Origin: a virus
Virus record (IMG/VR): IMGVR_UViG_3300021964_000018
Span: 32,001-96,000 of that record
DNA: 64,000 nucleotides
Direction: 5' to 3' (one strand)
Of this stretch, positions 44,124-61,590 are shown one piece after another. The position numbers and the translations under genes were made by a program. The notes beneath the pieces were generated by a model. That model ran no database searches. It saw only the letters and a program-made list of their open reading frames with translations, and had not been told where the DNA came from. Within the stretch, counting starts at the first letter, position 1, and every line of letters begins with the position of its first letter.

Positions 44124-44339
44124 ATGAAATTAAATGATGAAGTAATCGCACACATTGCAAAACAATTACAACTGGCAATTTTGACTGGAACTGACATTGT
44201 TGATAACCTTCGAATGATTCGTTTAACTGCAGAAAATAATGAACTTTATTTGGATGCTGAATATTCAGAAATCGCTGAAGAAAACGAAAAAAGAATGCTT
44301 CAAGAAGCAGAAAAACTTGCATCACAGTTGGAAAATTAA
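44124..44339 (+). CDS. Hypothetical protein
   Basis: AGGAG RBS, 71 aa. Confidence 0.65.
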   Translation: MKLNDEVIAHIAKQLQLAILTGTDIVDNLRMIRLTAENNELYLDAEYSEIAEENEKRMLQEAEKLASQLEN

Positions 44340-44340
44340 T

Positions 44341-44724
44341 ATGAGTAATTGCAAACTTAAAGAAATGTTCGATTTGAGAGAGTCCTTTATTAAAAGGATG
44401 CAAAAAGAAAGACCGGGTTCATATCCAATACCTGTACCTTTAGAAAATCTTTCAGATAAAAAATCCCAGCAAGTTTGCAGAGATCTAGCTTTACGAGGTG
44501 TTGAAGAAATGTTTGAAGCACTTCAACACCTCAAAAACTGGAAACCTCACAAACTAACAGAAGATAAAGAATTCAACAAGGAAGAATTCTTAGAAGAAAT
44601 TGTGGATGCGTTCAATTATTTCATGGCTTTGTTAATTGTTGTAGATGTTGATGAAGAAAAACTATTTGAAGCATACCTTAAAAAAGATCAAAAAATTAGA
44701 AAAAGATTAGATGAAGGATACTAA
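44341..44724 (+). CDS. All-alpha NTP pyrophosphatase (dimeric dUTPase/dCTPase, MazG superfamily)
   Basis: VEEMFEALQHLKNWKPHK...FLEEIVDAFNYF...LFEAYLKKD. Confidence 0.8.
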   Translation: MSNCKLKEMFDLRESFIKRMQKERPGSYPIPVPLENLSDKKSQQVCRDLALRGVEEMFEALQHLKNWKPHKLTEDKEFNKEEFLEEIVDAFNYFMALLIVVDVDEEKLFEAYLKKDQKIRKRLDEGY

Positions 44725-45929: not shown

Positions 45930-46916
45930 ATGCCACAAAATAAAAATCTTACACCTGTTAAACTCCCAATGGAACTTAAATTTGGTCAAGAACCAAAAAC
46001 AAAATTTTATAATAATCTTGAACATCTTAAAGTTGAATTAGTTGATGCGCCCACCAGGTCCCAAGCCCTTAATGTTGCATGGCAATATGTAAAAGCAACA
46101 TGGGCTGATCATCATGACGAAACAAATCCAGCAACTGCTTCATTACAAGAATTGTCTGCAAACCTTGAAGATGTTCTTAACTTTCGTGCATTGCCAACAC
46201 CAATGGAATGTTTAGGTTTTACATTTAAGCTGTCCGGACTTTCATTTCAAGAAGTTACTCACATTATTCGTCATCGAGCCGGCTCTTTTGCAGCACAATG
46301 TACAGGTGATCGCGATCTTCGTGATGATCCAGCCGTTATCCCTGAGGCCGTTGAAAACAGTCCAGAGTTTTTGCAACGATATCGAAAAATTGTTCGTGAT
46401 TCAAAGCAACTTTATGCTGACATGTGTGACTCAAAAGACGTCTCTATGATGGATGCTCGAATGATTCTTCCAAAATGTATGACATCTTTTTATCTAATGC
46501 GTCTTAACCTTAAAGACCTATTAGGTTTTATTGCACAGCGTCAAGATATGCAAATTCAACCTGCAGCAGATAATATTCTTGCAGCTTATATGGCACGTGA
46601 GCTTTTAAAAGTTTTACCAGAAGCGTCAACACGAATTAATTTTAGTAAACCTGACATGCATTACATTAAGACTTTCCGTGTACCAGATGGTAAAGGCGGT
46701 GAAACATCACGTGGTACAAATCTTTATTGGCCAGAACCTAAAAATGATAAGTTTGAATATCACCCAAATGATACAATTTATCAGTCACGTCGAGAAGATA
46801 TTAATGGAACAAATAACCCAGGAACAAAAACAAAATTTACACAACTTTGGGAACAAGCTTTACACGAAATAGCAGGTATACAAATAGCTTATGCACAATT
46901 TATGGGTAGAATTTGA
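45930..46916 (+). CDS. ThyX-like flavin-dependent thymidylate synthase homologue with altered active site
   Basis: TPME..FTF, IIRHRAGSFAAQCTGDR, DARMILP, NLKDLLGFIAQR...Q. Confidence 0.8.
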   Translation: MPQNKNLTPVKLPMELKFGQEPKTKFYNNLEHLKVELVDAPTRSQALNVAWQYVKATWADHHDETNPATASLQELSANLEDVLNFRALPTPMECLGFTFKLSGLSFQEVTHIIRHRAGSFAAQCTGDRDLRDDPAVIPEAVENSPEFLQRYRKIVRDSKQLYADMCDSKDVSMMDARMILPKCMTSFYLMRLNLKDLLGFIAQRQDMQIQPAADNILAAYMARELLKVLPEASTRINFSKPDMHYIKTFRVPDGKGGETSRGTNLYWPEPKNDKFEYHPNDTIYQSRREDINGTNNPGTKTKFTQLWEQALHEIAGIQIAYAQFMGRI

Positions 46917-46992
46917 TTTTTTATAGATAAATGCCTATTTAATTTCATAATTAATAATGTTTAAAAATATTTCATTAAGGAGAAATTTAATT

Positions 46993-47904
46993 ATGAAATT
47001 AAATAGGCATAGTTTAAGAATGTTAATAGAAAGTGTACTTCAAGAAGAAGTAGATGTTTCAAAATTCAAAAAAGGTGAATCCACAATAGTAGCGACAAAA
47101 GGTGCAGCTGCTGATAATAAAGCAGCTTTTGAAGTTTCTGATGTTGACACTATAAAGAAAAAACTAGGTATAAAAATATCAGGAAAATATTATGTATGGA
47201 AAGGAAGTCAAGCAGAAGCAGGTTATAAATTAGGTTCTGTTAGATATTCTTCAGGCGACCCTTATACTTACGAAGAATTATCAAATGGGTTTTACAGAGT
47301 AATGTCCGGACCAGATAGTAACGAAAAAAGAGATAGTGGAAAAAGAATAGGTACGTCTCCAATTGGTGCTAAGTTTAAACCTTCTTCTCCTCCAGACGTT
47401 GTTGTTGATCCTACAAATGTTCTTTCGAAGTTACGCGAAACTCCTGATGGAGATAAAAGATCAGGCAATTTCGATAAAGCTGTGAACATATTGGTGGCGT
47501 GTGCATCTGACAAAAAACAACTAGGTGACGTTATAAGTGAATTAGAAAGTCTAGCAAGTAGACCAATTAGAGGAAAAGATCTTCTCGCTCATCCTGCACA
47601 TTATGTTGCAAGATTGATGATGGGAGGTGTACAACAAGGAGGCGAAGTTTCAGGAACAGGCGCAGCTGCAAGTAATTCCAAAATTATCAATAAATATTTG
47701 TCATTACTGCAGAAGAAGCACGGTATGGGACGTGGTAACGTCGATATAAAATTTGACATGCGGATTAGCCAAGATCGCGCAGATAAATCTAATTTTGGAG
47801 ATTCAGTTAAGTCTGGTGCGAAAACTGGTGGAGGTCAAGCTGAAAAAATGGATGAATCTTTATCACGCGGATCTTTACTAAGAAGACGTTATAGAAGATA
47901 CTAG
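46993..47904 (+). CDS. Hypothetical protein, putative internal head protein
   Basis: AGGAGA RBS; N-term MKLNRHSLRMLIESVLQE; C-term MDESLSRGSLLRRRY. Confidence 0.6.
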   Translation: MKLNRHSLRMLIESVLQEEVDVSKFKKGESTIVATKGAAADNKAAFEVSDVDTIKKKLGIKISGKYYVWKGSQAEAGYKLGSVRYSSGDPYTYEELSNGFYRVMSGPDSNEKRDSGKRIGTSPIGAKFKPSSPPDVVVDPTNVLSKLRETPDGDKRSGNFDKAVNILVACASDKKQLGDVISELESLASRPIRGKDLLAHPAHYVARLMMGGVQQGGEVSGTGAAASNSKIINKYLSLLQKKHGMGRGNVDIKFDMRISQDRADKSNFGDSVKSGAKTGGGQAEKMDESLSRGSLLRRRYRRY

Positions 47905-50457: not shown

Positions 50458-50508
50458 TTATTGCGAATAATTAATTATTGATTTATACTTTGTTAAAAAG
50501 GTGTGCAA

Positions 50509-52314
50509 ATGATTATAAATGAAAAATTAATTAAAAAACTCATTAAGGAGTCTATTAACAAGTTAATAGTTGAAAAAGCTAAGTTTACAAAAGCAGAAAA
50601 TTTTTTAAAAGATACTGAAAATCATTATGAAATTTTTGAAAATATAAAATATTCCTATAATATTGTCATGTTAAAAGATTTTGAAAATGACCTAGAAGTA
50701 AAAGAAGAAGCAAAGAAAAATATAGAAAACGTCTTTGCTGCTTTTTTACACTCTAGCCCCAAAACAGAAAAAGGAAAGGTATGGTTTTTAGATAAGTCTA
50801 TTAACAGATACGTTACAGACTTAAGCAATATTCCAGAATTTGGCAGTAATCCTTTTTATGATAGTCCAATTTTACTTAAAAGAATAAAGGAAAAAAATAA
50901 TTTTTCCGACCAAGAAGCAAAGAAAAACCTACTAGATAGAATTAAACGTTTCACGAAAGATATATCTAGAGAATTAATAGAACTAGTAAAGAAATCAGTA
51001 ACACATGATTTGCAAAGAAAACTTAAGTCAAATTTTATGGAAAAAAATAAAGACATATTAGAAAGTTTAAACTTTGTTCATTATCCTTATGCGTTTAGAG
51101 AATATTCAGAAACAGACACAACAGGGATCGGCGCAGTCTTAGAAGTCCTAGGAAAGCCCTTGGAATTTTTAAAAGGAACTGTAGTTAATAGTCCTGACGA
51201 ATTAGCTGGGATTGGTTATCCTAAAGGGGAGGAATTAAGAGATTCAATTGGTATGGGTAGCGAGTTAGGAGGAAAAATCGCGTTTCCATATATTGGTTTT
51301 CTTATAACGGGAAAGATTACTTATTTTGATGAAAAAGATGCTCAATCATCAACTTATCGAAGTAGCTTTGTTGGCGGTCAAAGAGACAGCAGCGGTTTTG
51401 TAAGATACCCAAAAGACATTCAAGGTTCAATGTCCAACCAGATACCAGGCGCGTACAAGACAAAGGAGGAATTAGAAAATTATCTTTCTAATTTTGATAA
51501 AAGATTTGGCGCGTTAACAACAGCTGAAAGAAGCGAATCTGAGATAAAAACTGGTTTTAAAAAACATAATTATGGTGAAGCTTTTATTGACAATTGGACA
51601 GCAGTTGGTATGATTGCGCAATGGGATTTAATTGTTAAAAAGTTTAGAGAAAAGCTTTTAGCAACTATAACAGGTTTAGAATTAGATCCTCAAAAAGAAT
51701 TTAAGCAATACCTTTATAAAAATAAAGGTTATTCTCCTTTTAATGATATTCAATTGACACATAGCTTAAGAACAGCTAAAAAAAATCTAGATATCGTTGC
51801 CTTAGGCGAACCTAAAATAGAAGACTTGTCGGTAAATAAAAACCGATACAAGACGGCAAAAGATAATTTAAGTTTTGAATATGGTGGTGACTCAATTCCA
51901 TACTTATCGAAAAAACTAGGTATTCAAAAAGAAGCAGTACCTTCTTTTATTGAAGACTTTATAAAAAATATTGATCCTGTTTTAGAACAACTTAAAACAG
52001 GCGAAATATTATATAGTGAGTTAAATAATCCTAAAGTAGAAGAATTCATAGATAAATATTATGAAGGTGATATAGCTTCAGATTTGCAAAAACAACAACG
52101 CAAAATAAAAAACTTGATTAAAAAAACAGGCTCAGCATCAATAATTTCAACTTTAACAATCGGTCTAGAAAAGATTAATGATGATTTAAGCAAATTTGAA
52201 GATATTAAACTAAAATCATATGATAAAAATTTCAATGAATATGATGTTAAAATATTTACAAATAATATGAGGCAAATAATAGCAGAAGCAATTGCGCAAT
52301 TAAAAAAACGTTAA
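50509..52314 (+). CDS. Hypothetical protein, putative internal head protein
   Basis: N-term MIINEKLIKKLIKESINKLIVE; preceded by ATAATTA. Confidence 0.6.
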   Translation: MIINEKLIKKLIKESINKLIVEKAKFTKAENFLKDTENHYEIFENIKYSYNIVMLKDFENDLEVKEEAKKNIENVFAAFLHSSPKTEKGKVWFLDKSINRYVTDLSNIPEFGSNPFYDSPILLKRIKEKNNFSDQEAKKNLLDRIKRFTKDISRELIELVKKSVTHDLQRKLKSNFMEKNKDILESLNFVHYPYAFREYSETDTTGIGAVLEVLGKPLEFLKGTVVNSPDELAGIGYPKGEELRDSIGMGSELGGKIAFPYIGFLITGKITYFDEKDAQSSTYRSSFVGGQRDSSGFVRYPKDIQGSMSNQIPGAYKTKEELENYLSNFDKRFGALTTAERSESEIKTGFKKHNYGEAFIDNWTAVGMIAQWDLIVKKFREKLLATITGLELDPQKEFKQYLYKNKGYSPFNDIQLTHSLRTAKKNLDIVALGEPKIEDLSVNKNRYKTAKDNLSFEYGGDSIPYLSKKLGIQKEAVPSFIEDFIKNIDPVLEQLKTGEILYSELNNPKVEEFIDKYYEGDIASDLQKQQRKIKNLIKKTGSASIISTLTIGLEKINDDLSKFEDIKLKSYDKNFNEYDVKIFTNNMRQIIAEAIAQLKKR

Positions 52315-52447: not shown

Positions 52448-55400
52448 ATGCCAGTTCTTATCCCCCCACCGACCAAATTCGTCGGGCTTCATTGTCACTC
52501 AGGATTTAGCGTTTATGATGGTCTAGGTTATCCTGCTGATCATATTGATTTTGTGCTTGAAAATGGCATGGATGCCTGGGCTTTAACCGACCATGGAAAC
52601 GGTTCCGGTCTCGCACACGCACATAAACATGCCGAAAAACTCAGAAAGAAAGGTGTCAAGTATCGACAAATTTATGGTTGTGAATTTTATTTTGTGCCGT
52701 CGCTAAAACAATGGCGCGGTGATTATGAACAAGCAAAAATTGACCGTGCTGCTGCAAAACAAAAAGCAATCAAAGAAGAAGAGGAAGGTGGTCATATTAT
52801 TGAAAACGAAGAAGAAACCAAAACCTTTAAACTATCGAATGATGAATGGAAACGACGTTATCACTTGGTGATCACTGCGCAAAACGCCGAAGGTTTATCC
52901 AATCTCTTTACTCTGATTAAACGCGCCTATACAGATGGTTTCTACAGATATCCTCGAATTGATTTTGATCTTCTTAAAAAATATGGACGCGGTTTAAATG
53001 TGTCGACAGCTTGTCTTGGCGGCATATATTCAAATCGTATTATGCGTGGCAATGCGCTCAAATTATCAGACGAACAAATTCAATCTGAACTGTTGCAGCT
53101 ATCTGATCGTTTTGTTGATGCTGTCGGCGAAGATAATTTTTATCTTGAAGTTCAATTTAATCGACTTAAACAACAACACCTGGTAAATCATCATCTACTT
53201 CGACATGCTGATCAAACTGGTATTCCTCTTTTAGCAACAGCTGATTCTCATTACTATAGCCCGGATAAGTGGGAGGCGCGCGAATTGTATAAAAAACTTG
53301 GTTGGATGGGTGCTGATCCTAGTCCGCTACCTGAGTTTGAAGATTTAAAATGCGAACTATACCCTAAGAACGCAGAACAAATGTGGGGTGAGTTTACAAG
53401 ACATTATGATGAATACGAAGATACATACAAAGGTTATGAAGAAAAAATTAAAGGTGCCATTGAAAGATCGTATGAAATTGCCTGGGATAAATGCGAAGAC
53501 TGTTGGATTGATACTTCTGTTAAGCTTCCCGATTTTAACTCTCCTGAGTCGTCAGCTTTTCAAAAGCTGGGAAAAAAGGTCAAAGAGGCGCTTGTCAAAG
53601 AAGAATTGCACAAAAAACCAGAATATGTCGCCCGAGCAAAGGCAGAATTAGAAGATATCAAATACTTAGGATTTGAAAACTATTTCTTGGTGATGAATGA
53701 GGTATTTCATAAGGCGGCTGACCATACGCTGTTTGGTCCTGCCCGTGGTTCTGGTGGCGGTTCTTTGGTTAATTATTTGTTGGGAATTACTCAGGTTGAC
53801 CCGCTTAAATACGACCTTCTTTGGGAGCGGTTTCTCGGAAGACATCGAACATCTTGGCCTGACATTGATTCTGACGCTGGCGATCGCGATGCTCTTATAA
53901 ATGCAGCCCGAGAACTCTACGGTAATGAAGCTGTTATTCCTGTTTCAAACTTTAACACTCTTAAGCTTAAATCGCTAGTAAAAGATATTGCCAAGTTCTA
54001 TGGCATTGATTTTGGCGAAGTAAATAAAATGACCGGTCCATTACAAAGTGAAGTAATGGCTCAAGCACGCGATGAAAACACAGAAAAATCTGTGTTTGTC
54101 CTTAAACATGCGGATTGCATGAAATATTCAAAAGGCTATCGTGAGTTTATGGAAAAATATCCAAAAGTCAAAGATCACCTTGAAGCCTTATTCATGCAGA
54201 ACAGATCGGTTGGGCGTCATGCTGGCGGTGTTATTATTGGTCCACCCGAAGACCTTGAAAGGTCAATGCCTATTATCGGTGTTCGTGGTGAATTACAAAC
54301 TCCTTGGACGGAAGGTATGAACTTCAGAAATCTTGAGGATAATGGTTTTATTAAGTTTGACTTTCTTGGTTTGACGCTATTAAAAGACGTAGAAAACTGT
54401 ATTAGTCGAATTATTACTCGTGAAACAGGTAAGAAACCAACATTTCTCGAAATACGTGATTGGTTTGATAAACATCTAAATTGTCGTTATGTCACACAAG
54501 ATGATGAAAAGGTTTGGAAACATGTTTATCATCAACGAAGAAAAACAGGTGTCTTTCAATTTACTGCTGAAGGTGCTCGTAAGTTCTGTGAAAATGCCAA
54601 ACCAACTACAATTGAAGAATTAGCAGCATTAACAGCAATCTATCGTCCCGGTCCTCTTCGTGCTAATGTTCATAAAAAATATGTAAAGGATAAAGCCAAT
54701 GCGGAAAACATTGAATATGCACATCCTATTATTAAAGAAATCCTAGGCACGACTTTTGGTCATGTTACGTTTCAAGAACAGTTCATGCTTCTTGCACAGA
54801 AGCTAGGTGGATTCTCTCCGGCTGAATCTGATAAACTTAGAAAGACGTTAGTTAAAAAGTCATTGGATACTATGGGTAAGAAAGGTGATGAACGTGAAGC
54901 TGCTCGAATTAAATTCGTAACCGGTGCCAAAGAAATCAATGGTGTTCCGGAGCATGTATCACAAGAGTTATGGGAACGTATTGAATTCTTCTCGGTTTAT
55001 GGTTTCAATAAGTCTCATGCTATTGCCTATGCTTTGGATTCTTATTATGCAGCATGGTTGCATACTTATTATGAAACTGACTGGCTAGGTACTATTCTGG
55101 AATCCGAGAATAACAATCCTGATGCTTTGGCAAAGGCGATTAGTGAAATTAAGGCTATGGGCTTTGAAGTATCTACACCGGACATTAATGAATCAGGAAT
55201 TGCATGGACATGGTCCGAAAATAAAAAGGCGTTTATTCCACCCTTAACTTCGATTAAAGGTCTTGGTAAAAATGCTGTGAAAGAAATATTTGAAAATCGA
55301 CCTTACGAGTCAATTGATCAAATGTTATTTAATGAAGAAGGCAAATGGTATCACTCTAAACTTAACAAAACTGGATTTGCTGCATTGTGCAAGGTTGAGG

Positions 55401-55960
55401 CATTACATTCACTAAAAGAAATGTGGGATGGAACGATTAAAAATCACCGTCAGCTGCATGAAATTATTATTGAAAATTATGTTCTGCTTAAAAAATCTCG
55501 ATGGGGTATGACAATTCGTCAGGCCCAAAAGAAAGATGCACCTGACTTTTTCTTGCAATTAATTGATGATACAGCTGAAATTGAAGATTGGAATCGATTA
55601 GAAAAACTACAAATGTATCAGGATTTATGTTCAGCGACTCGTGATGACCTCGCATTTCCTGAAGAAATGTTAACTAAAATTCAATCATCAGGCGTCAAAT
55701 CAGTTTTACAGTTCGCGCCTGGTGAAAAATCAATTGGTTGGTTTTGTGTGATTGAATGGATTAAAAAGACAACCAAGAATAAGAAAACCTTTTATCGAAT
55801 TAAGATAACTGATAATCAAAATAATACAGGTTGGCTTCGAATGTGGGGTAATAAGCCTAGTTCAATGACTCCTTATTCTATCTGGCTGACTAAGGCGCAT
55901 AATGATCCGAATTGGGGTGCTTCAACAAGTGTCGCAAAAGTAAGACCTTTAATTGTGTAA
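52448..55960 (+). CDS. dnaE: DNA polymerase III alpha subunit (family C)
   Basis: PHP LHCHSGFS..DG, ALTDHG, GCEFY, DSHY; GPARGSGGGSLV.Y.LGIT.VDP, PDIDSD, HAGGV, KFDFLGL, YRPGP, YGFNKSHA. Confidence 0.95.
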   Translation: MPVLIPPPTKFVGLHCHSGFSVYDGLGYPADHIDFVLENGMDAWALTDHGNGSGLAHAHKHAEKLRKKGVKYRQIYGCEFYFVPSLKQWRGDYEQAKIDRAAAKQKAIKEEEEGGHIIENEEETKTFKLSNDEWKRRYHLVITAQNAEGLSNLFTLIKRAYTDGFYRYPRIDFDLLKKYGRGLNVSTACLGGIYSNRIMRGNALKLSDEQIQSELLQLSDRFVDAVGEDNFYLEVQFNRLKQQHLVNHHLLRHADQTGIPLLATADSHYYSPDKWEARELYKKLGWMGADPSPLPEFEDLKCELYPKNAEQMWGEFTRHYDEYEDTYKGYEEKIKGAIERSYEIAWDKCEDCWIDTSVKLPDFNSPESSAFQKLGKKVKEALVKEELHKKPEYVARAKAELEDIKYLGFENYFLVMNEVFHKAADHTLFGPARGSGGGSLVNYLLGITQVDPLKYDLLWERFLGRHRTSWPDIDSDAGDRDALINAARELYGNEAVIPVSNFNTLKLKSLVKDIAKFYGIDFGEVNKMTGPLQSEVMAQARDENTEKSVFVLKHADCMKYSKGYREFMEKYPKVKDHLEALFMQNRSVGRHAGGVIIGPPEDLERSMPIIGVRGELQTPWTEGMNFRNLEDNGFIKFDFLGLTLLKDVENCISRIITRETGKKPTFLEIRDWFDKHLNCRYVTQDDEKVWKHVYHQRRKTGVFQFTAEGARKFCENAKPTTIEELAALTAIYRPGPLRANVHKKYVKDKANAENIEYAHPIIKEILGTTFGHVTFQEQFMLLAQKLGGFSPAESDKLRKTLVKKSLDTMGKKGDEREAARIKFVTGAKEINGVPEHVSQELWERIEFFSVYGFNKSHAIAYALDSYYAAWLHTYYETDWLGTILESENNNPDALAKAISEIKAMGFEVSTPDINESGIAWTWSENKKAFIPPLTSIKGLGKNAVKEIFENRPYESIDQMLFNEEGKWYHSKLNKTGFAALCKVEALHSLKEMWDGTIKNHRQLHEIIIENYVLLKKSRWGMTIRQAQKKDAPDFFLQLIDDTAEIEDWNRLEKLQMYQDLCSATRDDLAFPEEMLTKIQSSGVKSVLQFAPGEKSIGWFCVIEWIKKTTKNKKTFYRIKITDNQNNTGWLRMWGNKPSSMTPYSIWLTKAHNDPNWGASTSVAKVRPLIV

Positions 55961-56003: not shown

Positions 56004-56900
56004 ATGGTTAAGTTTCCTATTGAAAAAATTATAATTGAAGGTCCAGATTTAGCTGGAAAAACAACATTGCTTAATAAAATGCATGATATATCAAAATTCC
56101 GCTGGAATATACAAGATCGTTCTGCATTATCAATGCTAATTTATGCAAAAATGTATAATCGAGATACGTTTCACTTAGTTGAAAATCTTAAAAAAGAACT
56201 GTTTAATCTTAACAATCAAATTGTTTTATTACTACCACCTTTTGAAGTTTTATCAAAAAGGTTTCAAAAACGTGGTGATCCAATACAAAATTTAATATCA
56301 TTGCGAAAGCTTCATAAGCTATTTTCAGAATTTGAAGAAGAATATGGATCTTTACCAAACGTAACAGTTGTTAAAAAAGAAATTAGTGATCATGATTATA
56401 AATCAATTGTAGGTCGTTATCTTGCAATGGAACAACATGCTACAATACATCAATTTCCTGCTATGTGTGTTAATGCTGCTAATACACAGGATAACAAAGA
56501 AGTCGTTGGCCTTAGGTTTACTTATTTTGATGATGGCCAATTCACAGATGTTATTCCAGAACTTATGGAGTATAAAGGGGAAAAAGAATATTATCTTAAA
56601 ATTAGAGAAAAGTTGCATTATAAAATGATGCAAAATCATACTGACAGCCAAGATGTTTCTTCTAGAAGAATAATTTATAGCGATGATAGTTGTATTTCTT
56701 TGGCACATTTTTTAATACGTGAACAAATGTTTGATGCTAAGTTTTTTCTGCGATCATCAAATGTAAAAGATACTTTGAAATATGATATTAATTTTATTCA
56801 TTTTCTAACTAGTCATGTATATCAATCTTATCATTGCAATCAGCCTGTGAAAATAGAACTGACGTTAAACTCGGCACATATTTGTGATAGAATAGATTAG
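56004..56900 (+). CDS. Fusion of a dNMP (thymidylate-type) kinase and a minimal thymidylate-synthase-fold domain
   Basis: N-term IIIEGPDLAGKTT, IQDRS..S..IY, R..KRGD; C-term SRRII, C230, LRSSNV, YD261I, SAH292I. Confidence 0.75.
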   Translation: MVKFPIEKIIIEGPDLAGKTTLLNKMHDISKFRWNIQDRSALSMLIYAKMYNRDTFHLVENLKKELFNLNNQIVLLLPPFEVLSKRFQKRGDPIQNLISLRKLHKLFSEFEEEYGSLPNVTVVKKEISDHDYKSIVGRYLAMEQHATIHQFPAMCVNAANTQDNKEVVGLRFTYFDDGQFTDVIPELMEYKGEKEYYLKIREKLHYKMMQNHTDSQDVSSRRIIYSDDSCISLAHFLIREQMFDAKFFLRSSNVKDTLKYDINFIHFLTSHVYQSYHCNQPVKIELTLNSAHICDRID

Positions 56901-56902
56901 TT

Positions 56903-57061
56903 ATGAAAAATGATAAGCTTTGGTTATTAATTGATGGCGTACTAAAAAAACTGCATCATGCAAAATTTTGGGCTACTTCTATTGATCCTCACAAAGAAGA
57001 TATAATAAAAGCAATAGAAGCTTTAGAATCTGCAAGAAAGAAAATTGAGGAAGAAAAATGA
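56903..57061 (+). CDS. Small hypothetical protein (52 aa), not in ORF track
   Basis: MKNDKLWLLIDG...KKIEEEK*; fills the gap, with an ATGA overlap with dUTPase. Confidence 0.55.
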   Translation: MKNDKLWLLIDGVLKKLHHAKFWATSIDPHKEDIIKAIEALESARKKIEEEK

Positions 57062-57468
57062 AAATTAATATTAAAAAACTGCATCCAAATGCAGTGATCC
57101 CTGCATATGCAAAACAAGGTGATGCAGGTATGGATTTAACAGCAATCGGAATAAAAGAAACCGGTTCTCACATCACATATCATACAGGTTTGGCAATAGA
57201 AATCCCAAGAGGTTATGTGGGTTTATTGTTTCCTAGAAGCTCAATCTATAAAACAGATCAGACACTAACAAATTCAGTAGGCGTTATTGATAGCGGGTAT
57301 CGAGGTGAAATTATGATGAAATTTACTCGAGGAATTAATCATTATTGTATTGGTGATAGAATTGGTCAAATTATGATTTTACCTTATCCGCAAATTGAAT
57401 TTGAAGAAGTTGATCAACTTTCAACTTCAGAAAGAGGGGCTAATGGCTATGGAAGCACAGGAGCCTAA
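57058..57468 (+). CDS. dut: Trimeric dUTPase
   Basis: DAGMDL, PRSS, GVIDSGYRGEI, DRIGQ, RGANGYGSTG. Confidence 0.95.
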   Translation: MKINIKKLHPNAVIPAYAKQGDAGMDLTAIGIKETGSHITYHTGLAIEIPRGYVGLLFPRSSIYKTDQTLTNSVGVIDSGYRGEIMMKFTRGINHYCIGDRIGQIMILPYPQIEFEEVDQLSTSERGANGYGSTGA

Positions 57469-57682
57469 TCTAAATTCAGAAGCATATGAATATATTATTT
57501 ATGAGAATAATAAACTAATAGTTTTTCCTTCACCTTCTGGTATGCACGCAGGAATGAAAAGACATTATTATTTTAAAAAAGTTTTTAATGAATATCATTT
57601 GACAATTGTAAATAGGAAATCTTGGGAAAAATTAAAAAATCAATATAAAGTAAAAGTTTTAAAAATTAAGGAGAAAGAATGA
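57443..57682 (+). CDS. Hypothetical protein
   Basis: Overlaps both neighbours in operon-like fashion; start uncertain. Confidence 0.5.
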   Translation: MAMEAQEPNLNSEAYEYIIYENNKLIVFPSPSGMHAGMKRHYYFKKVFNEYHLTIVNRKSWEKLKNQYKVKVLKIKEKE

Positions 57683-58710
57683 AAAAAGCACTCGTAACAG
57701 GTGGCTGCGGATTTATCGGTAGTAATCTTACAAAAGAATTAATAAAACAAGGTTGGCAAGTCGATATTGTTGATGACATGTCTAATGGTCATTTAGAGTT
57801 GTTAGGCGGTTTAAAATTTAAAACGCTTCCAAATGCATCTTTTGTTTATCATTTTATGAATCAGATGAAAGGAAAAACACAAAGGGCTAAGAATACTGTG
57901 CTTGTAATTCAAGATGATTTTGCTGCACCAGCGCTTCTTGATTATATTGAAACAAATGCTTACGATGTAATATTTCACCAAGCAGCAGTTCCGAGAGTAA
58001 GTTATTCAGTTGAGTTTCCTTATGAAACTACAATTAATAACATTGCAAAAACTGTATCACTTTTCGATGCTGCTAAAGGTCATGTTAAAAGAATTGTTAA
58101 TGCATCATCTTCATCAGTTTATGGCGGGGCTGATAAATTACCTACTAAGGAAAGTGAAAATCAAAAAAGCCCAAAGTCTCCTTATGCATGGCAAAAAAGT
58201 GCGATTGAAGATTATTCAAAAATCTGTGCCGATTTATATGATTTAGACATTGTAAATTTAAGATATTTTAATGTTTTCGGCCCAGGTCAATATGGTAATA
58301 GTCCTTATTCAACGGCGGTGTCTGCATGGTGTCATGCAATTAAAAATGGATTAGAATGTAGATCTGACGGTGATGGAGAGCAAACCCGCGATATGTGTTA
58401 TATAGACAATATTGTATCAGCTAATATTTTAGCAGCATATGCAACCGGAAAATTTAAAGGTTTGGCATATAATGTTGCATGTGGAGACAGGGTCTCAAAC
58501 AATGAAATTTTAAATTATCTTAAAAACCAGTTTGGAGATCGAGTTAAAGTAAAAAATGCTCCAGAAAGACCAGGTGATGTAAAACATACACAGGCAGATA
58601 TCAGTTGTGCAACACAAGATTTTGGTTATAAACCTCTTGTTCAGTTTTGGGAAGGTTTGGAAAGAACAATCGAGTGGTGGGAAATAAAACCTGACGAATC
58701 AAATAAATAG
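57679..58710 (+). CDS. NDP-sugar 4-epimerase (GalE/WbpP-like extended SDR)
   Basis: VTGGCGFIGS, FHQAA, ASSSSVYG, PKSPYAWQK, LRYFNVFGP, GDGEQTRD, RPGDVKH. Confidence 0.9.
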   Translation: MKKALVTGGCGFIGSNLTKELIKQGWQVDIVDDMSNGHLELLGGLKFKTLPNASFVYHFMNQMKGKTQRAKNTVLVIQDDFAAPALLDYIETNAYDVIFHQAAVPRVSYSVEFPYETTINNIAKTVSLFDAAKGHVKRIVNASSSSVYGGADKLPTKESENQKSPKSPYAWQKSAIEDYSKICADLYDLDIVNLRYFNVFGPGQYGNSPYSTAVSAWCHAIKNGLECRSDGDGEQTRDMCYIDNIVSANILAAYATGKFKGLAYNVACGDRVSNNEILNYLKNQFGDRVKVKNAPERPGDVKHTQADISCATQDFGYKPLVQFWEGLERTIEWWEIKPDESNK

Positions 58711-59579: not shown

Positions 59580-60188
59580 ATGTTAACGGCAATGGGCGAC
59601 GTTATGCGAAAAGCACACGAAAAAGGATGGATTACAACAAGAGATGGTAATGTATCTGTTAAAATGACAGGAAAAGATATCCTATATATAACACCTTCTG
59701 GTTGGCGAAAGACAATATTGCATCCTGAACATATTATTAAAGTTAAATTTACCCCTGCAGGTTTAAACGTTCCAGAAGGAACAACACCTTCTGGGGAATT
59801 GCATATGCATTCAAAGCTTCAACGGTTTGCAAAATATACGAGATCGGTTGTTCACCTTCACCCCACAAATATTATTGCAGCAATGTATGCCGGCTGGAAT
59901 TTGCAATCGTTGGCAGCAGAATTTCCTGAGGTATCACGTTATACAAGGGTTGGACCAACTGTTCCAGTTCTTCCTGTCACGTCGAATATACTTGCTGAAG
60001 AAACATTTGAGGCTTTTACTGATTTTGAAGGTACCGGATCTAATAAACTTAAGTTTGATATTGTTGGTCAAAAAAATCATGGAGTTTGTGCAGTAGGCGC
60101 AAATCCATGGGATGCTTATGAACATATTGAAAGGTTAGAACACATTTGTGAAATAGCCTTAAAAAGTGGAAGAAGACCTAATGAATAG
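59580..60188 (+). CDS. Class II aldolase/adducin family (FucA/AraD/MtnB-like)
   Basis: DGNVS, ITPSG, PSGELHMH, VVHLHP, NHGV. Confidence 0.88.
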   Translation: MLTAMGDVMRKAHEKGWITTRDGNVSVKMTGKDILYITPSGWRKTILHPEHIIKVKFTPAGLNVPEGTTPSGELHMHSKLQRFAKYTRSVVHLHPTNIIAAMYAGWNLQSLAAEFPEVSRYTRVGPTVPVLPVTSNILAEETFEAFTDFEGTGSNKLKFDIVGQKNHGVCAVGANPWDAYEHIERLEHICEIALKSGRRPNE

Positions 60189-60591
60189 ACCAGAATGGGA
60201 TGATATATGGATGGGTTTTGCTCAAAGTATTGCTAAGAGATCTTGTGATTCAAAATATCAAGTTGGTGCCGTCGTTGTAAATTCAGAAAACACACAAGTT
60301 CTTTCAATAGGATATAATGGTGATCAAAAAGGTGGGTCAAATCAAAGGGACTCTACTGAAACCGGTCAATCAGGATTTATTCATGCAGAAATCAATGCAT
60401 TAATTAAGATGGACTATAATAACCCATGTAAGAAAAAAATGTATTTGACTCTTTCGCCTTGTGAAGTCTGTGCAAAAGCAATCGTCAATGCAGGAATAAC
60501 AGCAGTCGTTTATTCTAAAGAATATGAGCACGGAAAAAAAGGAATATCTATTTTAAATGATGCAGGAATAGTGGTAAGAAACATTAAATGA
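60181..60591 (+). CDS. dCMP deaminase
   Basis: RPEWD, VGAVVV, GYNG, HAEINAL, PCEVCAK. Confidence 0.92.
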   Translation: MNRPEWDDIWMGFAQSIAKRSCDSKYQVGAVVVNSENTQVLSIGYNGDQKGGSNQRDSTETGQSGFIHAEINALIKMDYNNPCKKKMYLTLSPCEVCAKAIVNAGITAVVYSKEYEHGKKGISILNDAGIVVRNIK

Positions 60592-60888: not shown

Positions 60889-61590
60889 ATGGACATGTTA
60901 TTTAATCAAAAGGCAAAGCAAATCATTAAAGATACTCTTAAAACTAGTGAACAAGGATTAAATGAATCTTTTGTTTCGCAGGAAAAGCAATTTGATATCA
61001 ATACAGACTTTCTATCAGAAAAAAATATTAATAATCATAAAGAATTATATAAGAGTTATATTGAAAATTTCAATAAAGTCAGTGCAAAACTAGATTCAGC
61101 AGATAGGTCTAGTGCAGACAAAAATCATTCTGAGTTTCGTTCACTTAAACTTGACGAAACTTTTAATATGAACGGTGCTTATCTTCATGAATTATATTTT
61201 GCCAACATTGCAGATGCTAATTCTCAAATCAATATGGATTCTTTATCTTTTATGCGGATCAATAGAGACTTTGGCTCTTTCGATGCATGGCAAAAAGATT
61301 TGATCGCATGTGGTAAAAGTGCAAGAAATGGATGGGTTATTACATATTTGAACATGTATACACAATCTTATATGAATTGTTTTATTGACCTTCATTCTAA
61401 AAACGTACCGGTTGGAATGTATCCTGTTATTGTAATAGATATGTGGGATCATTCTTATTACAAAGATTATCTTAAAGACTCAAAAACATATTTGATTGCG
61501 ATGATGAAGCAATTAAAATGGAATGTTATTGAAGAAAGAATTAAAAAAGCAGATAAATTATTACAAGTTTTGAGAGGCCATGATGTATAG
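60889..61590 (+). CDS. Fe/Mn superoxide dismutase-like protein
   Basis: H..LY..Y...N, NG..LHELYF, DFGSFDAW, GWV, IDMWDHSYY.DY. Confidence 0.82.
   Translation: MDMLFNQKAKQIIKDTLKTSEQGLNESFVSQEKQFDINTDFLSEKNINNHKELYKSYIENFNKVSAKLDSADRSSADKNHSEFRSLKLDETFNMNGAYLHELYFANIADANSQINMDSLSFMRINRDFGSFDAWQKDLIACGKSARNGWVITYLNMYTQSYMNCFIDLHSKNVPVGMYPVIVIDMWDHSYYKDYLKDSKTYLIAMMKQLKWNVIEERIKKADKLLQVLRGHDV

What the first reader, a model, noticed from the sequence alone, without database searches (positions are those of the whole stretch)
56004..56900. dNMP kinase fused to a miniature TS-fold domain carrying the dCMP-specificity Asp
Seen: the C-terminal part aligns by eye, without gaps from C230 to D261, to E. 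coli ThyA at offset 84: C230=C146 (nucleophile), R250-S251=R166-S167, N253=D169, D261=N177; H292 is near H207. SRRII matches ThyA SRRII with a much shorter loop. Known: Asn177 selects dUMP, whereas Asp at this site (T4 dCMP hydroxymethylase Asp179, TS N177D mutant) selects dCMP. Inference: the domain acts on dCMP and the fused kinase phosphorylates the product. Its small size and the D169-to-N change suggest folate binding may be lost, so C5 may receive another electrophile, such as an aldehyde from the class II aldolase or a group supplied by the odd ThyX.
Basis: partly seen in the sequence, partly recalled or inferred. Interest (0 to 1): 0.88.

Follow-up and report, generated by a model that had tools for sequence, protein, structure and literature searches.

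The report
Kinase fused to minimal dCMP-modifying enzyme
An uncultured marine phage encodes one protein that joins a small nucleotide kinase to a stripped-down thymidylate-synthase-like domain carrying the residue signature of the recently described 5-hydroxy-dCMP synthases, so this phage lineage probably puts a modified cytosine into its DNA.

Summary
ORF 56004-56900 (298 aa) has two domains: a YorR/thymidylate-kinase-like P-loop kinase (residues 1-145) and a 153-residue thymidylate-synthase (TS) fold (146-298). Pfam does not detect the TS domain.

dCMP as substrate and a coupled kinase are well supported. The "odd" D169-to-N change is not evidence for an unknown electrophile. It is the published diagnostic of flavin/O2-dependent 5-hydroxy-dCMP synthases (Lee et al., NAR 2026, PMC13326640; PDB 9iqu, 9iqc), and these are the best structural matches. 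In all three described 5hoC systems a YorR/TMK-like kinase gene lies near the synthase gene. Here the two are fused.

Caveats: position 253 flips between N and D at least five times across the wider family, no DNA glycosyltransferase or flavin reductase was found in the record, and the product is untested.

This is a new variant of a known kind: the smallest TS-fold enzyme seen, fused to a kinase, and known only from viral metagenomes. This scan found the same fusion earlier in other genomes, with the same reading.

The parts
56004..56900 (+). Whole gene: kinase plus minimal TS-fold fusion, 298 aa plus stop
   Evidence: ORF and translation. Full-length AF2 model pLDDT 88.7, pTM 0.84. 369 homologues at E<=0.001, mostly about 300 aa.
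56004..56438 (+). N-terminal nucleotide (dNMP) kinase domain, residues 1-145. P-loop G13-T21 (56040-56066), D38-R39 motif, LID R86/R90-G-D92.
   Evidence: Pfam TMK/dNK. YorR 3kb2 Z 13.4. PDB profile hit 2axp E 1.1e-5. These residues are invariant or nearly so. It is the only TMK-like kinase in the 141-kb record.
56439..56897 (+). C-terminal minimal TS-fold domain, residues 146-298 (153 aa)
   Evidence: Domain model pLDDT 94.7. 9iqc Z 10.8, 145 aligned, rmsd 3.3 A; ThyA Z 9.5; MilA 8.6; T4 dCH 7.5; next unrelated hit 5.8. Foldseek E 2.9e-6 to 9iqc and 9iqu. hhalign Prob 96.3 to the 5hodCMP-synthase profile.
56661..56669 (+). S220-R221-R222, equivalent to ThyA S125-R126-R127 (phosphate-binding Arg pair donated across the dimer)
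   Evidence: hhalign. R221 51/51, R222 47/51. In the predicted dimer R221/R222 of one copy touch R250/S251 of the other.
56691..56693 (+). C230, the catalytic nucleophile (ThyA C146, T4 gp42 C148)
   Evidence: Invariant 51/51 and 28/28. Aligned by hhalign.
56751..56762 (+). R250-S251-S252-N253, equivalent to ThyA R166-S167-C168-D169. N253 is the D169N position.
   Evidence: R250 and S251 invariant. Position 253 is N in 29 of 30 members of this protein's clade, and N 33 / D 15 / E 2 / H 1 in the wider family.
56784..56786 (+). D261, equivalent to ThyA N177 and T4 gp42 D179 (selects cytosine over uracil)
   Evidence: Invariant 51/51. Aligned by hhalign. Role stated in PMC13326640.
56580..56594 (+). 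E193 (invariant), Y196 and Y197 on the helix before the SRR strand. Y196 aligns with the YG tyrosine of RB69 gp48 (ThyA Y94 region). E193 is a candidate stand-in for ThyA E58 / T4 E60.
   Evidence: Conservation. Global hhalign. Motif comparison with T4 gp42 and RB69 gp48 sequences. The residue-level equivalence of E193 is not resolved.
56877..56879 (+). H292 in the S-A-H motif, equivalent to ThyA H207, T4 gp42 SLH and RB69 gp48 SAH
   Evidence: 50/51 conserved. hhalign.
44239..44724 (+). Context: all-alpha NTP pyrophosphohydrolase resembling T4/RB69 gp56, a candidate dCTPase that would supply dCMP
   Evidence: BLASTP against RB69 gp56 E 5e-5 over most of the length. phrog_12184 E 8.3e-15, phrog_173 E 1.9e-10.
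52448..55960 (+). Context: DnaE-type DNA polymerase III alpha, immediately upstream. This order is kept in relatives.
   Evidence: Pfam. Synteny in L003, L004, L005 and the P0082 contig.
57058..57468 (+). Context: trimeric dUTPase/DCD-like enzyme
   Evidence: Pfam dUTPase E 6.2e-19. Syntenic in L003.
57679..58710 (+). Context: NDP-sugar epimerase/dehydratase (SDR). Syntenic downstream of the fusion across the lineage.
   Evidence: Pfam Epimerase E 9.2e-43. No NCBIfam equivalog cut-off reached. Synteny.
60166..60591 (+). Context: dCMP deaminase
   Evidence: Pfam E 4.1e-21. Syntenic.

Best explanation
The gene encodes a bifunctional enzyme that makes a C5-modified deoxycytidine nucleotide for phage DNA.

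Proposed steps:
1. The C-terminal 153-residue domain is a minimal TS-fold homodimer.
2. It binds dCMP through R250/S251 and, from the partner subunit, R221/R222. D261 reads the cytosine N3/N4 edge.
3. C230 attacks C6 and so activates C5.
4. Because position 253 is Asn (the D169N signature), the most likely second reactant is a flavin hydroperoxide. The reaction would then be an O2-dependent hydroxylation giving 5-hydroxy-dCMP.
5. The fused YorR/TMK-like kinase converts this to the diphosphate. Host NDP kinase and the phage DnaE polymerase would then place 5-hydroxycytosine in DNA, possibly for later decoration.
6. A gp56-like NTP pyrophosphohydrolase upstream would supply dCMP by hydrolysing dCTP, as in T-even phages.

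Shown here: fold, residue equivalences, conservation, predicted dimer geometry, fusion, synteny.
Inferred: substrate (strongly), hydroxylase chemistry (moderately), kinase substrate, incorporation into DNA.

My odds: about 0.75 that it is a dCMP C5-modifying enzyme plus kinase, and about 0.5 that the product is 5-hydroxy-dCMP.
For: - Fold: for the domain-alone model the top seven of 48,161 PDB representatives are all TS-superfamily. They are led by the flavin-dependent dCMP monooxygenase 9iqc (Z 10.8, 145 of 153 residues, rmsd 3.3 A), ahead of ThyA 9.5, MilA 8.6 and T4 dCH 7.5, with the next unrelated hit at 5.8. Foldseek ranks 9iqc and 9iqu first (E 2.9e-6; MilA 4.9e-5, ThyA about 1e-4, T4 dCH 2e-4).
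- Homology: the family profile against the RB69-gp48-type 5hodCMP-synthase profile gives Prob 96.3, E 1.9e-9.
- Signature: Lee et al. (PMC13326640) define 5hodCMP synthases by C146 plus N177D plus D169N (the diagnostic residue), with L143D/E. This protein has C230, D261, N253, and D227 three residues before the Cys.
- Conservation: C230, D261, R221, R250, S251 and E193 are invariant in 51 divergent members.
- Dimer: ipSAE 0.77 against a best control of 0.00. That mark was reached by 20 of 30 proteins solved as pairs and 1 of 23 solved as single chains. The runs agree in 100% of contacts and partner pLDDT is 88. R221/R222 of one copy contact R250/S251 of the other, as in TS. TS dimers are solved, so this pass may come from memory.
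- Kinase link: DLP3 gp78, RB69 gp45 and RL38J1 gp214 are YorR/TMK-like kinases encoded two or three genes from the 5hodCMP synthase gene in the same cluster (Table 1 of PMC13326640; RB69 map). Here the same kind of kinase (YorR Z 13.4) is fused, and in contig L010 it is a separate adjacent gene.
- Context: a gp56-like NTP-PPase, dUTPase, dCMP deaminase, ThyX and DnaE form a conserved DNA-precursor module.
Against: - Position 253 is not fixed in the wider family (N 33, D 15, E 2, H 1). It has flipped at least 5 times on the tree within the same gene context. Either the chemistry switches or the residue is less diagnostic in this scaffold.
- The structural margin over other TS subfamilies is small (about 1-3 Z units), and a single T4 gp42 sequence aligns as well as a single RB69 gp48 sequence.
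- The domain lacks roughly 80-110 residues found in AfhB and ThyA, so where a flavin would bind is unknown.
- No flavin reductase, glycosyltransferase or sugar nucleotidyltransferase was detected in the 141-kb record, which is only 54% complete.
- No Pfam TS hit in any of 51 members.
- No biochemical data exist for any member, and no cultured phage carries the gene.
Confidence: 0.5

Rival explanations
1. It is a folate-dependent dCMP hydroxymethylase (T4 gp42-like) that makes 5-hydroxymethyl-dCMP, which the fused kinase then phosphorylates.
For: - hhalign to a single T4 gp42 sequence gives Prob 93.7, E 2e-7, as good as to a single RB69 gp48 sequence.
- It shares C, the IR[DE] motif at Cys+8..+10, RS, D179 and S-x-H with gp42.
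- 15 of 51 family members carry Asp at position 253, as gp42 does.
- A ThyX homologue in the module implies that CH2-THF is in use.
Against: - This protein and 29 of 30 members of its clade have Asn, not Asp, at the D169 position.
- The TS segments that hold folate (the W80/W83 region and the C-terminal tail, by established TS structure knowledge) fall in the parts missing from the 153-aa domain.
- T4 dCH is the weakest TS-family structural match (Z 7.5 against 10.8 for 9iqc).
Confidence: 0.2
2. One reading: the domain activates C5 of dCMP for a new electrophile, such as a sugar aldehyde from the class II aldolase or a group from the unusual ThyX, giving an undescribed C-C linked modification.
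For: - The cofactor-binding parts of TS are missing.
- A class II aldolase, two SDRs, a methyltransferase and a divergent ThyX (NCBIfam 41.6 bits against a cut-off of 87.9) sit in the same conserved module.
- No glycosyltransferase was found that would explain the sugar genes.
Against: - D169N already has a published explanation.
- The aldolase is absent from some relatives that keep the fusion, for example L003.
- There is no precedent and no direct link.
- The best structural matches are the flavin hydroxylases.
Confidence: 0.1
3. The TS-like domain is a non-catalytic nucleotide-binding or specificity module for the kinase, or a decaying remnant.
For: It is drastically reduced in size, gives no Pfam TS match, and has no identified cofactor site.
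Against: - The nucleophilic Cys, the phosphate-binding Arg residues, D261, E193 and H292 are invariant or nearly so across proteins only 21-47% identical. This is purifying selection on exactly the catalytic set.
- A confident TS-type dimer is predicted with cross-subunit Arg contacts.
Confidence: 0.08
4. It acts on another pyrimidine nucleotide. Either it is an ordinary dUMP-to-dTMP synthase, or it is a MilA-like CMP (ribo) enzyme working with the neighbouring NDT/MilB-like N-glycosidase to make a free modified base.
For: MilA is a near-top structural match (Z 11.8 with the full-length model; 8.6 with the domain model). An NDT-family gene is conserved in the module.
Against: - Asp at the N177 position argues against dUMP.
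- The phage already has ThyX and dCMP deaminase for dTMP.
- The fused kinase is of the dNMP/dTMP type, and the gene lies between the DNA polymerase and the dUTPase.
- Ribo versus deoxy preference cannot be read from the sequence.
Confidence: 0.07

Closest known systems
Flavin-dependent 5-hydroxy-dCMP synthases: HY126 AfhB (PDB 9iqu, 9iqc), RB69 gp48, DLP3 gp80, RL38J1 gp216 (Lee et al., NAR 2026, PMC13326640)
   Same: TS fold. Catalytic Cys. Asp at the N177 position. Asn at the D169 position. An acidic residue three positions before the Cys. S-A-H motif. They are the best structural and profile matches. They are genetically coupled to a YorR/TMK-like kinase.
   Different: 153 aa against 217-238 aa. 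Not detectable with Pfam PF00303, whereas all gp48 relatives are. About 12-14% identity. Covalently fused to the kinase. The family also has Asp-253 members. No arabinose or glycosyltransferase genes were found nearby. Flavin binding is untested.
T4 gp42 dCMP hydroxymethylase (PDB 1b5d)
   Same: Cys148, Asp179, the IRD motif after the Cys, RS, S-x-H, an acidic residue at Cys-3, and dCMP as substrate. Similar pathway logic: dCTPase, modifying enzyme, dNMP kinase.
   Different: gp42 has Asp171 where this protein has Asn253. gp42 is 246 aa with a folate site and is not fused. Structural Z is only 7.5.
ThyA thymidylate synthase (E. coli, L. casei)
   Same: The core beta-sheet dimer, SRR, Cys146, Arg166-Ser167 and His207 equivalents.
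   Different: Asn177 becomes Asp and Asp169 becomes Asn. The W80/W83 region, the loop before the Cys and the C-terminal ~55 residues are absent. L143 is replaced by Asp.
MilA CMP hydroxymethylase (PDB 5jnh, 5b6e)
   Same: A TS-fold enzyme that acts on cytosine nucleotides. Structural Z 8.6-11.8.
   Different: MilA is 318 aa, prefers the ribonucleotide, uses folate, and belongs to antibiotic biosynthesis.
YorR (SPbeta prophage, PDB 2axp/3kb2) and the cluster kinases RB69 gp45 and DLP3 gp78
   Same: The N-terminal domain: P-loop, DR motif, RGD LID. Z 13.4 to YorR. DLP3 gp78 also has 3kb2 as its top hit.
   Different: Only the P-loop aligns significantly with RB69 gp45, so orthology is not shown. 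Those kinases are stand-alone.

Membership tests
Thymidylate synthase / dCMP hydroxymethylase superfamily (fold level) | TS alpha/beta fold | tested here: met
   The top 7 of 48,161 PDB representatives are all TS-family, Z 10.8-7.5, with 133-145 of 153 residues aligned. The next hit is 5.8. Foldseek prob 1.00.
Thymidylate synthase / dCMP hydroxymethylase superfamily (fold level) | Nucleophilic Cys (C146) and phosphate-binding R166/S167 and R126'/R127' | tested here: met
   C230, R250, S251 and R221 are 51/51; R222 is 47/51. Aligned by hhalign. An R21 equivalent was not identified.
Thymidylate synthase / dCMP hydroxymethylase superfamily (fold level) | Obligate homodimer with Arg residues donated across the interface | tested here: inconclusive
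   Prediction only. ipSAE 0.77 against a best control of 0.00 (the mark was reached by 20 of 30 solved pairs and 1 of 23 single chains). Contacts agree 100% and partner pLDDT is 88. R221/R222 contact R250/S251 of the other copy. The pass may come from memory of TS dimers.
Thymidylate synthase / dCMP hydroxymethylase superfamily (fold level) | Match to Pfam PF00303 | tested here: not met
   None of 51 members hits PF00303 at E<=1, and there is no hit in the genome. Homology appears only at the profile-profile level.
5-hydroxy-dCMP synthase (AfhB / RB69 gp48 type) | Asp at the N177 position (dCMP selection) | tested here: met
   D261, 51/51.
5-hydroxy-dCMP synthase (AfhB / RB69 gp48 type) | Asn at the D169 position (published diagnostic) | tested here: met
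   N253 in this protein and in 29 of 30 members of its clade. In the wider family it is N in 33 of 51 and D in 15 of 51, so the feature is met for this gene but not for the whole family.
5-hydroxy-dCMP synthase (AfhB / RB69 gp48 type) | Acidic residue at the L143 position | tested here: inconclusive
   D227 lies 3 residues before C230, like D145 of T4 gp42 and the Glu of RB69 gp48. However, the loop is shortened and position 227 varies (D 16, S 15 of 51), whereas D228 is commoner (32/51).
5-hydroxy-dCMP synthase (AfhB / RB69 gp48 type) | Flavin cofactor, O2 as oxygen source, 5hodCMP as product | not testable with these tools
   This needs protein chemistry. No flavin reductase gene was found in the record.
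5-hydroxy-dCMP synthase (AfhB / RB69 gp48 type) | Cluster partners: YorR/TMK-like kinase, DNA glycosyltransferase, NDP-sugar genes | tested here: inconclusive
   The kinase is present (fused). SDR epimerases are syntenic, and one relative has PMM plus a cytidylyltransferase. No GT1, GT2 or NTP_transferase family was detected in the 54%-complete record.
T4 gp42-type dCMP hydroxymethylase | Asp171 (= ThyA D169) and a folate-binding site | tested here: not met
   Asn253 occupies this position. The domain ends 6 residues after H292 and has about 22 residues where ThyA has about 60 between helix B and SRR.
dTMP/dNMP kinase (P-loop NMP kinase, YorR-like) | P-loop, DR motif, LID arginines, kinase fold | tested here: met
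   G13-x4-G18-K19-T20, D38-R39 and R86/R90-G-D92 are invariant or nearly so. Pfam TMK 27.2 bits against a cut-off of 27. Z 13.4 to YorR and 11.8 to dTMP kinase 2plr. NCBIfam DTMP_kinase is below cut-off (32.4 against 83.25).

The most novel reading that the evidence does not exclude
The 153-residue domain is a minimal TS catalytic core that has lost its own cofactor lid. It would complete its second-substrate site with the fused kinase domain or the dimer partner. Within this one scaffold, single N-to-D or D-to-N changes at position 253 would switch phage lineages repeatedly between two cytosine chemistries (hydroxylation and hydroxymethylation), or to a chemistry not yet described. The abundant marine DnaE-phage lineage would then carry several different modified cytosines, possibly further decorated by the conserved SDR, aldolase and methyltransferase genes through transferases of unknown fold.
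Probability: 0.2. Interest if true: 0.85.

Novelty: new variant of a known kind. Interest (0 to 1): 0.62.

Why it matters
Cytosine-hydroxylating TS homologues were described only in 2025-2026, and only from cultured phages of enterobacteria, Acinetobacter, Shewanella and Rhizobium, plus a few metaviromic genes.

This gene would extend the chemistry to a large, uncultured marine phage lineage. The family has hundreds of protein clusters, and Tara Oceans is among the sources. Modified cytosine would then be common in ocean viral DNA. That affects restriction and CRISPR evasion, and it may bias sequencing-based viromics.

The domain is also the smallest TS-fold enzyme I could find, at about 60% of the size of ThyA. 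It therefore defines the minimal catalytic core of a textbook fold. It also bears on a question Lee et al. raise: how the family moved from a folate to a flavin cofactor.

The kinase fusion suggests a role for the YorR-like "nucleotide kinase" genes, of untested function, in the published 5hoC clusters. The repeated N/D flips offer a natural mutational series for testing whether the D169N rule is truly diagnostic.

Tried and rejected
- Sequence-only detection of the TS domain failed. Pfam and PDB phmmer gave nothing for the C-terminal half. PHROGs gave only an unnamed family (phrog_35203).
- tblastn against 50,697 phage records found no relative, even at E 5 or with a divergent member.
- BLASTP against RB69 gp48 was not significant on its own (E 0.98). 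An hhalign with the shallow 28-row alignment was weak (Prob 8.5). Only the 78-row family profile gave significance.
- The global hhalign to a single ThyA sequence was not significant (Prob 1.5). Only the local alignment over ThyA 120-190 was.
- I searched the whole 141-kb record for glycosyltransferases (PF00534, PF00535, PF13692), flavin reductase (PF01613), sugar nucleotidyltransferase (PF00483) and classical TS (PF00303). All were negative. The record is 54% complete, so this shows little.
- The two unannotated neighbours (46957-47904 and 50503-52314) gave nothing in Pfam, PHROGs or the ESM Atlas.
- No position other than 253 separates the N-type from the D-type members.
- RB69 gp45 aligns with the kinase domain only over the P-loop.
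- The careful maximum-likelihood tree did not finish. The quick tree was used.
I therefore could not measure kinase-to-TS-domain contacts or decide whether E193 occupies the E58 position.
Full report
**What is there.** The window is the middle of a 141-kb viral record, which CheckV estimates at 54% complete. Its genes are nearly all on the + strand and GC is about 33%. ORF 56004-56900 encodes 298 residues and has an AAGGAG ribosome-binding site 8 nt upstream. It lies 44 nt after a DnaE-type DNA polymerase gene (52448-55960) and before a dUTPase gene (57058-57468).

**N-terminal domain (1-145).**
- Pfam gives Thymidylate_kin (E 3.8e-6, 27.2 bits against a cut-off of 27) and dNK (E 3.4e-5).
- A profile of 28 homologues hits the SPbeta prophage protein YorR (2axp, E 1.1e-5).
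- The AlphaFold model (pLDDT 88.7, pTM 0.84) superposes on YorR with Z 13.4, 138 residues, rmsd 2.6 A, and on dTMP kinases with Z 11-12.
- The P-loop, the D38-R39 motif and the R86/R90-G-D92 LID are invariant or nearly so.
- It is the only TMK-like kinase in the record.

**C-terminal domain (146-298): fold.**
- No sequence library recognises it. None of 51 family members hits Pfam PF00303 at E<=1.
- Modelled alone it is very confident (pLDDT 94.7, pTM 0.89).
- An exhaustive structural search of 48,161 PDB representatives returns only TS-superfamily chains in the first seven places: 9iqc (flavin-dependent dCMP monooxygenase) Z 10.8 with 145 of 153 residues at 3.3 A, four ThyA chains Z 9.5-8.8, MilA 8.6 and T4 dCMP hydroxymethylase 7.5. 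The scores then drop to 5.8 for unrelated folds.
- Foldseek ranks 9iqc and 9iqu (phage HY126 AfhB dCMP hydroxylase) first at E 2.9e-6, about 15-fold or more ahead of MilA, ThyA and T4 dCH (the same order with the full-length model).

**C-terminal domain: homology.**
- A 78-sequence profile of the domain aligns to a profile of RB69-gp48-type enzymes with Prob 96.3 and E 1.9e-9.
- It aligns to a single T4 gp42 sequence with Prob 93.7, and to a single E. coli ThyA sequence locally with Prob 68.8 and E 4.5e-5.

**What is kept and what is lost.** Across 51 members that are only 21-47% identical to this protein:
- Invariant residues are E193, R221, C230, R250, S251 and D261.
- R222, R239, S290-A291-H292, Y196 and Y197 are at least 90% conserved.

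These are the nucleophile, the phosphate clamp, the base-specificity residue and the His207 equivalent.
- Y196 aligns with the YG tyrosine of RB69 gp48, which is the ThyA Y94 region.
- E193 is a candidate for the E58/E60 role, but I could not settle this without coordinates.
- The IR[DE] motif after the Cys is shared with T4 gp42 and RB69 gp48 but not with ThyA.

Compared with ThyA, three parts are missing. These are most of the stretch between the first strand/helix and SRR, ten residues of the loop before the Cys, and everything beyond six residues after H292. By established TS structure knowledge these segments hold W80/W83 and the C-terminal tail that close over the folate.

**Dimer.** A two-copy prediction gave ipSAE 0.77 against a best control of 0.00. 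In the tool's calibration 20 of 30 solved pairs and 1 of 23 single chains reach the mark. The three runs agree in 100% of contacts, and partner pLDDT is 88. The interface is the beta-sheet, and R221/R222 of one copy touch R250/S251 of the other, which is the TS arrangement. TS dimers are well represented among solved structures, so this pass may reflect memory. It shows likeness and does not prove binding.

**Comparison with what is known.** Lee et al. (NAR 2026, PMC13326640) showed several things.
- RB69 gp48, DLP3 gp80, RL38J1 gp216 and nine further TS homologues make 5-hydroxy-dCMP from dCMP, using O2 and a loosely bound flavin.
- These enzymes keep Cys146, have Asp at N177 and an acidic residue at L143, and are uniquely marked by Asn at D169.
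- They cite He et al. for the HY126 crystal structure with flavin.

The present protein has C230, D261, N253 and D227.

Table 1 of that paper also lists a "nucleotide kinase" of TMK/YorR type in each cluster: DLP3 gp78 (top hit 3kb2 = YorR), RB69 gp45 and RL38J1 gp214. In each cluster the kinase gene lies two or three genes from the synthase gene; the RB69 map is. Here that kind of kinase is fused to the synthase. In one metagenomic contig (L010) the two halves are adjacent overlapping genes in different frames. This is either a split form or a frameshift.

**Pathway context.** The surrounding genes form a DNA-precursor module that is conserved in relatives with 30-50% identical fusion proteins.
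- A gp56-like all-alpha NTP pyrophosphohydrolase (44239-44724): BLASTP against RB69 gp56 E 5e-5, phrog_12184 E 8e-15.
- A second NTP-PPase fused to a HAD nucleotidase.
- A divergent ThyX.
- An NDT-family protein.
- DnaE, then the fusion, then dUTPase.
- An NDP-sugar SDR, a DHH phosphoesterase, a class II aldolase and dCMP deaminase.
- A Fe/Mn-SOD-like protein.

This mirrors the T-even logic: dCTPase, then the dCMP-modifying enzyme, then a dNMP kinase, then the polymerase. One relative has a phosphomannomutase and a cytidylyltransferase close by.

I found no glycosyltransferase, sugar nucleotidyltransferase or flavin reductase in this record. The two unannotated neighbours stayed blank. Whether the base is further decorated is therefore open.

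**The main caveat.**
- In the wider family position 253 is N in 33, D in 15, E in 2 and H in 1 of 51 representatives. No other column tracks this split.
- On a quick ML tree of 78 members the state changes about 10 times, and at least 5 changes are forced by well-supported branches. Asn is the commoner state in the deeper clades.
- The clade of this window's protein is 29/30 Asn.
- Asp-type members sit in the same gene context.

Either the lineage switches chemistry often, or the residue matters less in this reduced scaffold. This keeps my confidence in the specific product near 0.5. I hold the broader statement (a dCMP C5-modifying enzyme coupled to a kinase) at about 0.75.

**Distribution and novelty.**
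- The family has 369 close homologues at E<=0.001 and 104 representatives at 50% clustering. Nearly all are unnamed, and sources include ENA, JGI, Logan and Tara Oceans metagenomes.
- The ESM Atlas holds four viral clusters with the same two-domain shape (TM 0.79-0.89), all labelled "hypothetical protein". It also holds a 437-aa viral cluster in which a kinase is fused to a full-size Pfam-recognisable TS domain.
- No cultured phage carries the fusion.
- I classify it as a new variant of a known kind. It has the chemistry family of the 5hodCMP synthases, but in a miniaturised, Pfam-invisible, kinase-fused form.
- This scan has reported the same fusion on other genomes, and follow-up agents reached the same reading. 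I saw those notes after I had formed mine. They agree with my reading but are not independent evidence.

Noticed in passing
window 44239-44724 (+): A 161-aa all-alpha NTP pyrophosphohydrolase with end-to-end similarity to RB69 gp56 dCTPase (BLASTP E 5e-5; phrog_12184 E 8.3e-15). Pfam does not see it. It is a candidate dCTPase for excluding canonical C.
   Followed up: partly
window 45930-46916 (+): A ThyX homologue of 328 aa that scores far below the NCBIfam thyX cut-off (41.6 against 87.9 bits). It is conserved next to an NDT-family gene in relatives (L004, L005). Its role is unexplained.
   Followed up: no
family-wide, position 253 of P0001 (window 56760-56762): The D169-equivalent residue flips between Asn and Asp at least 5 times across the kinase/mini-TS family without any co-varying position. 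This is a natural test set for the published D169N rule.
   Followed up: partly
L010:111-1039: In one metagenomic contig the kinase (141 aa, 48% identical to the N-terminal domain) and the mini-TS domain (169 aa) are separate overlapping genes in different frames. This is a split form or an assembly frameshift.
   Followed up: partly
proteins P0344-P0346: RB69-gp48-like 5hodCMP-synthase domains (46-48% identity) fused to a histidine-phosphatase domain (PF00300), 427-465 aa. This is another fusion architecture of the hydroxylase branch.
   Followed up: no
ESM Atlas cluster, row 6: A viral cluster of 437-aa proteins that combine Thymidylate_kin with a full-size Pfam-recognisable TS domain. It is a possible evolutionary intermediate towards the miniaturised fusion.
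   Followed up: no
window 60889-61590 (+); also L002:15073-15756, L003:11950-12645: A Fe/Mn superoxide-dismutase-like gene is conserved at the end of the nucleotide module in three phages. This is curious next to a putative O2/flavin-dependent hydroxylase. It scores below all NCBIfam SOD cut-offs.
   Followed up: no
contig of P0082; L003:5263-6414; L005:11968-12996: Relatives carry extra genes beside the fusion: a phosphomannomutase plus a cytidylyltransferase in one, and an IMPDH/GMP-reductase-like TIM-barrel protein in two others. None is present near the fusion in this window.
   Followed up: no
window 46957-47904 and 50503-52314 (+): Two sizeable conserved ORFs (315 and 603 aa) inside the module have no hit in Pfam, PHROGs or the ESM Atlas. 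They are candidates for transferases of unknown fold.
   Followed up: partly
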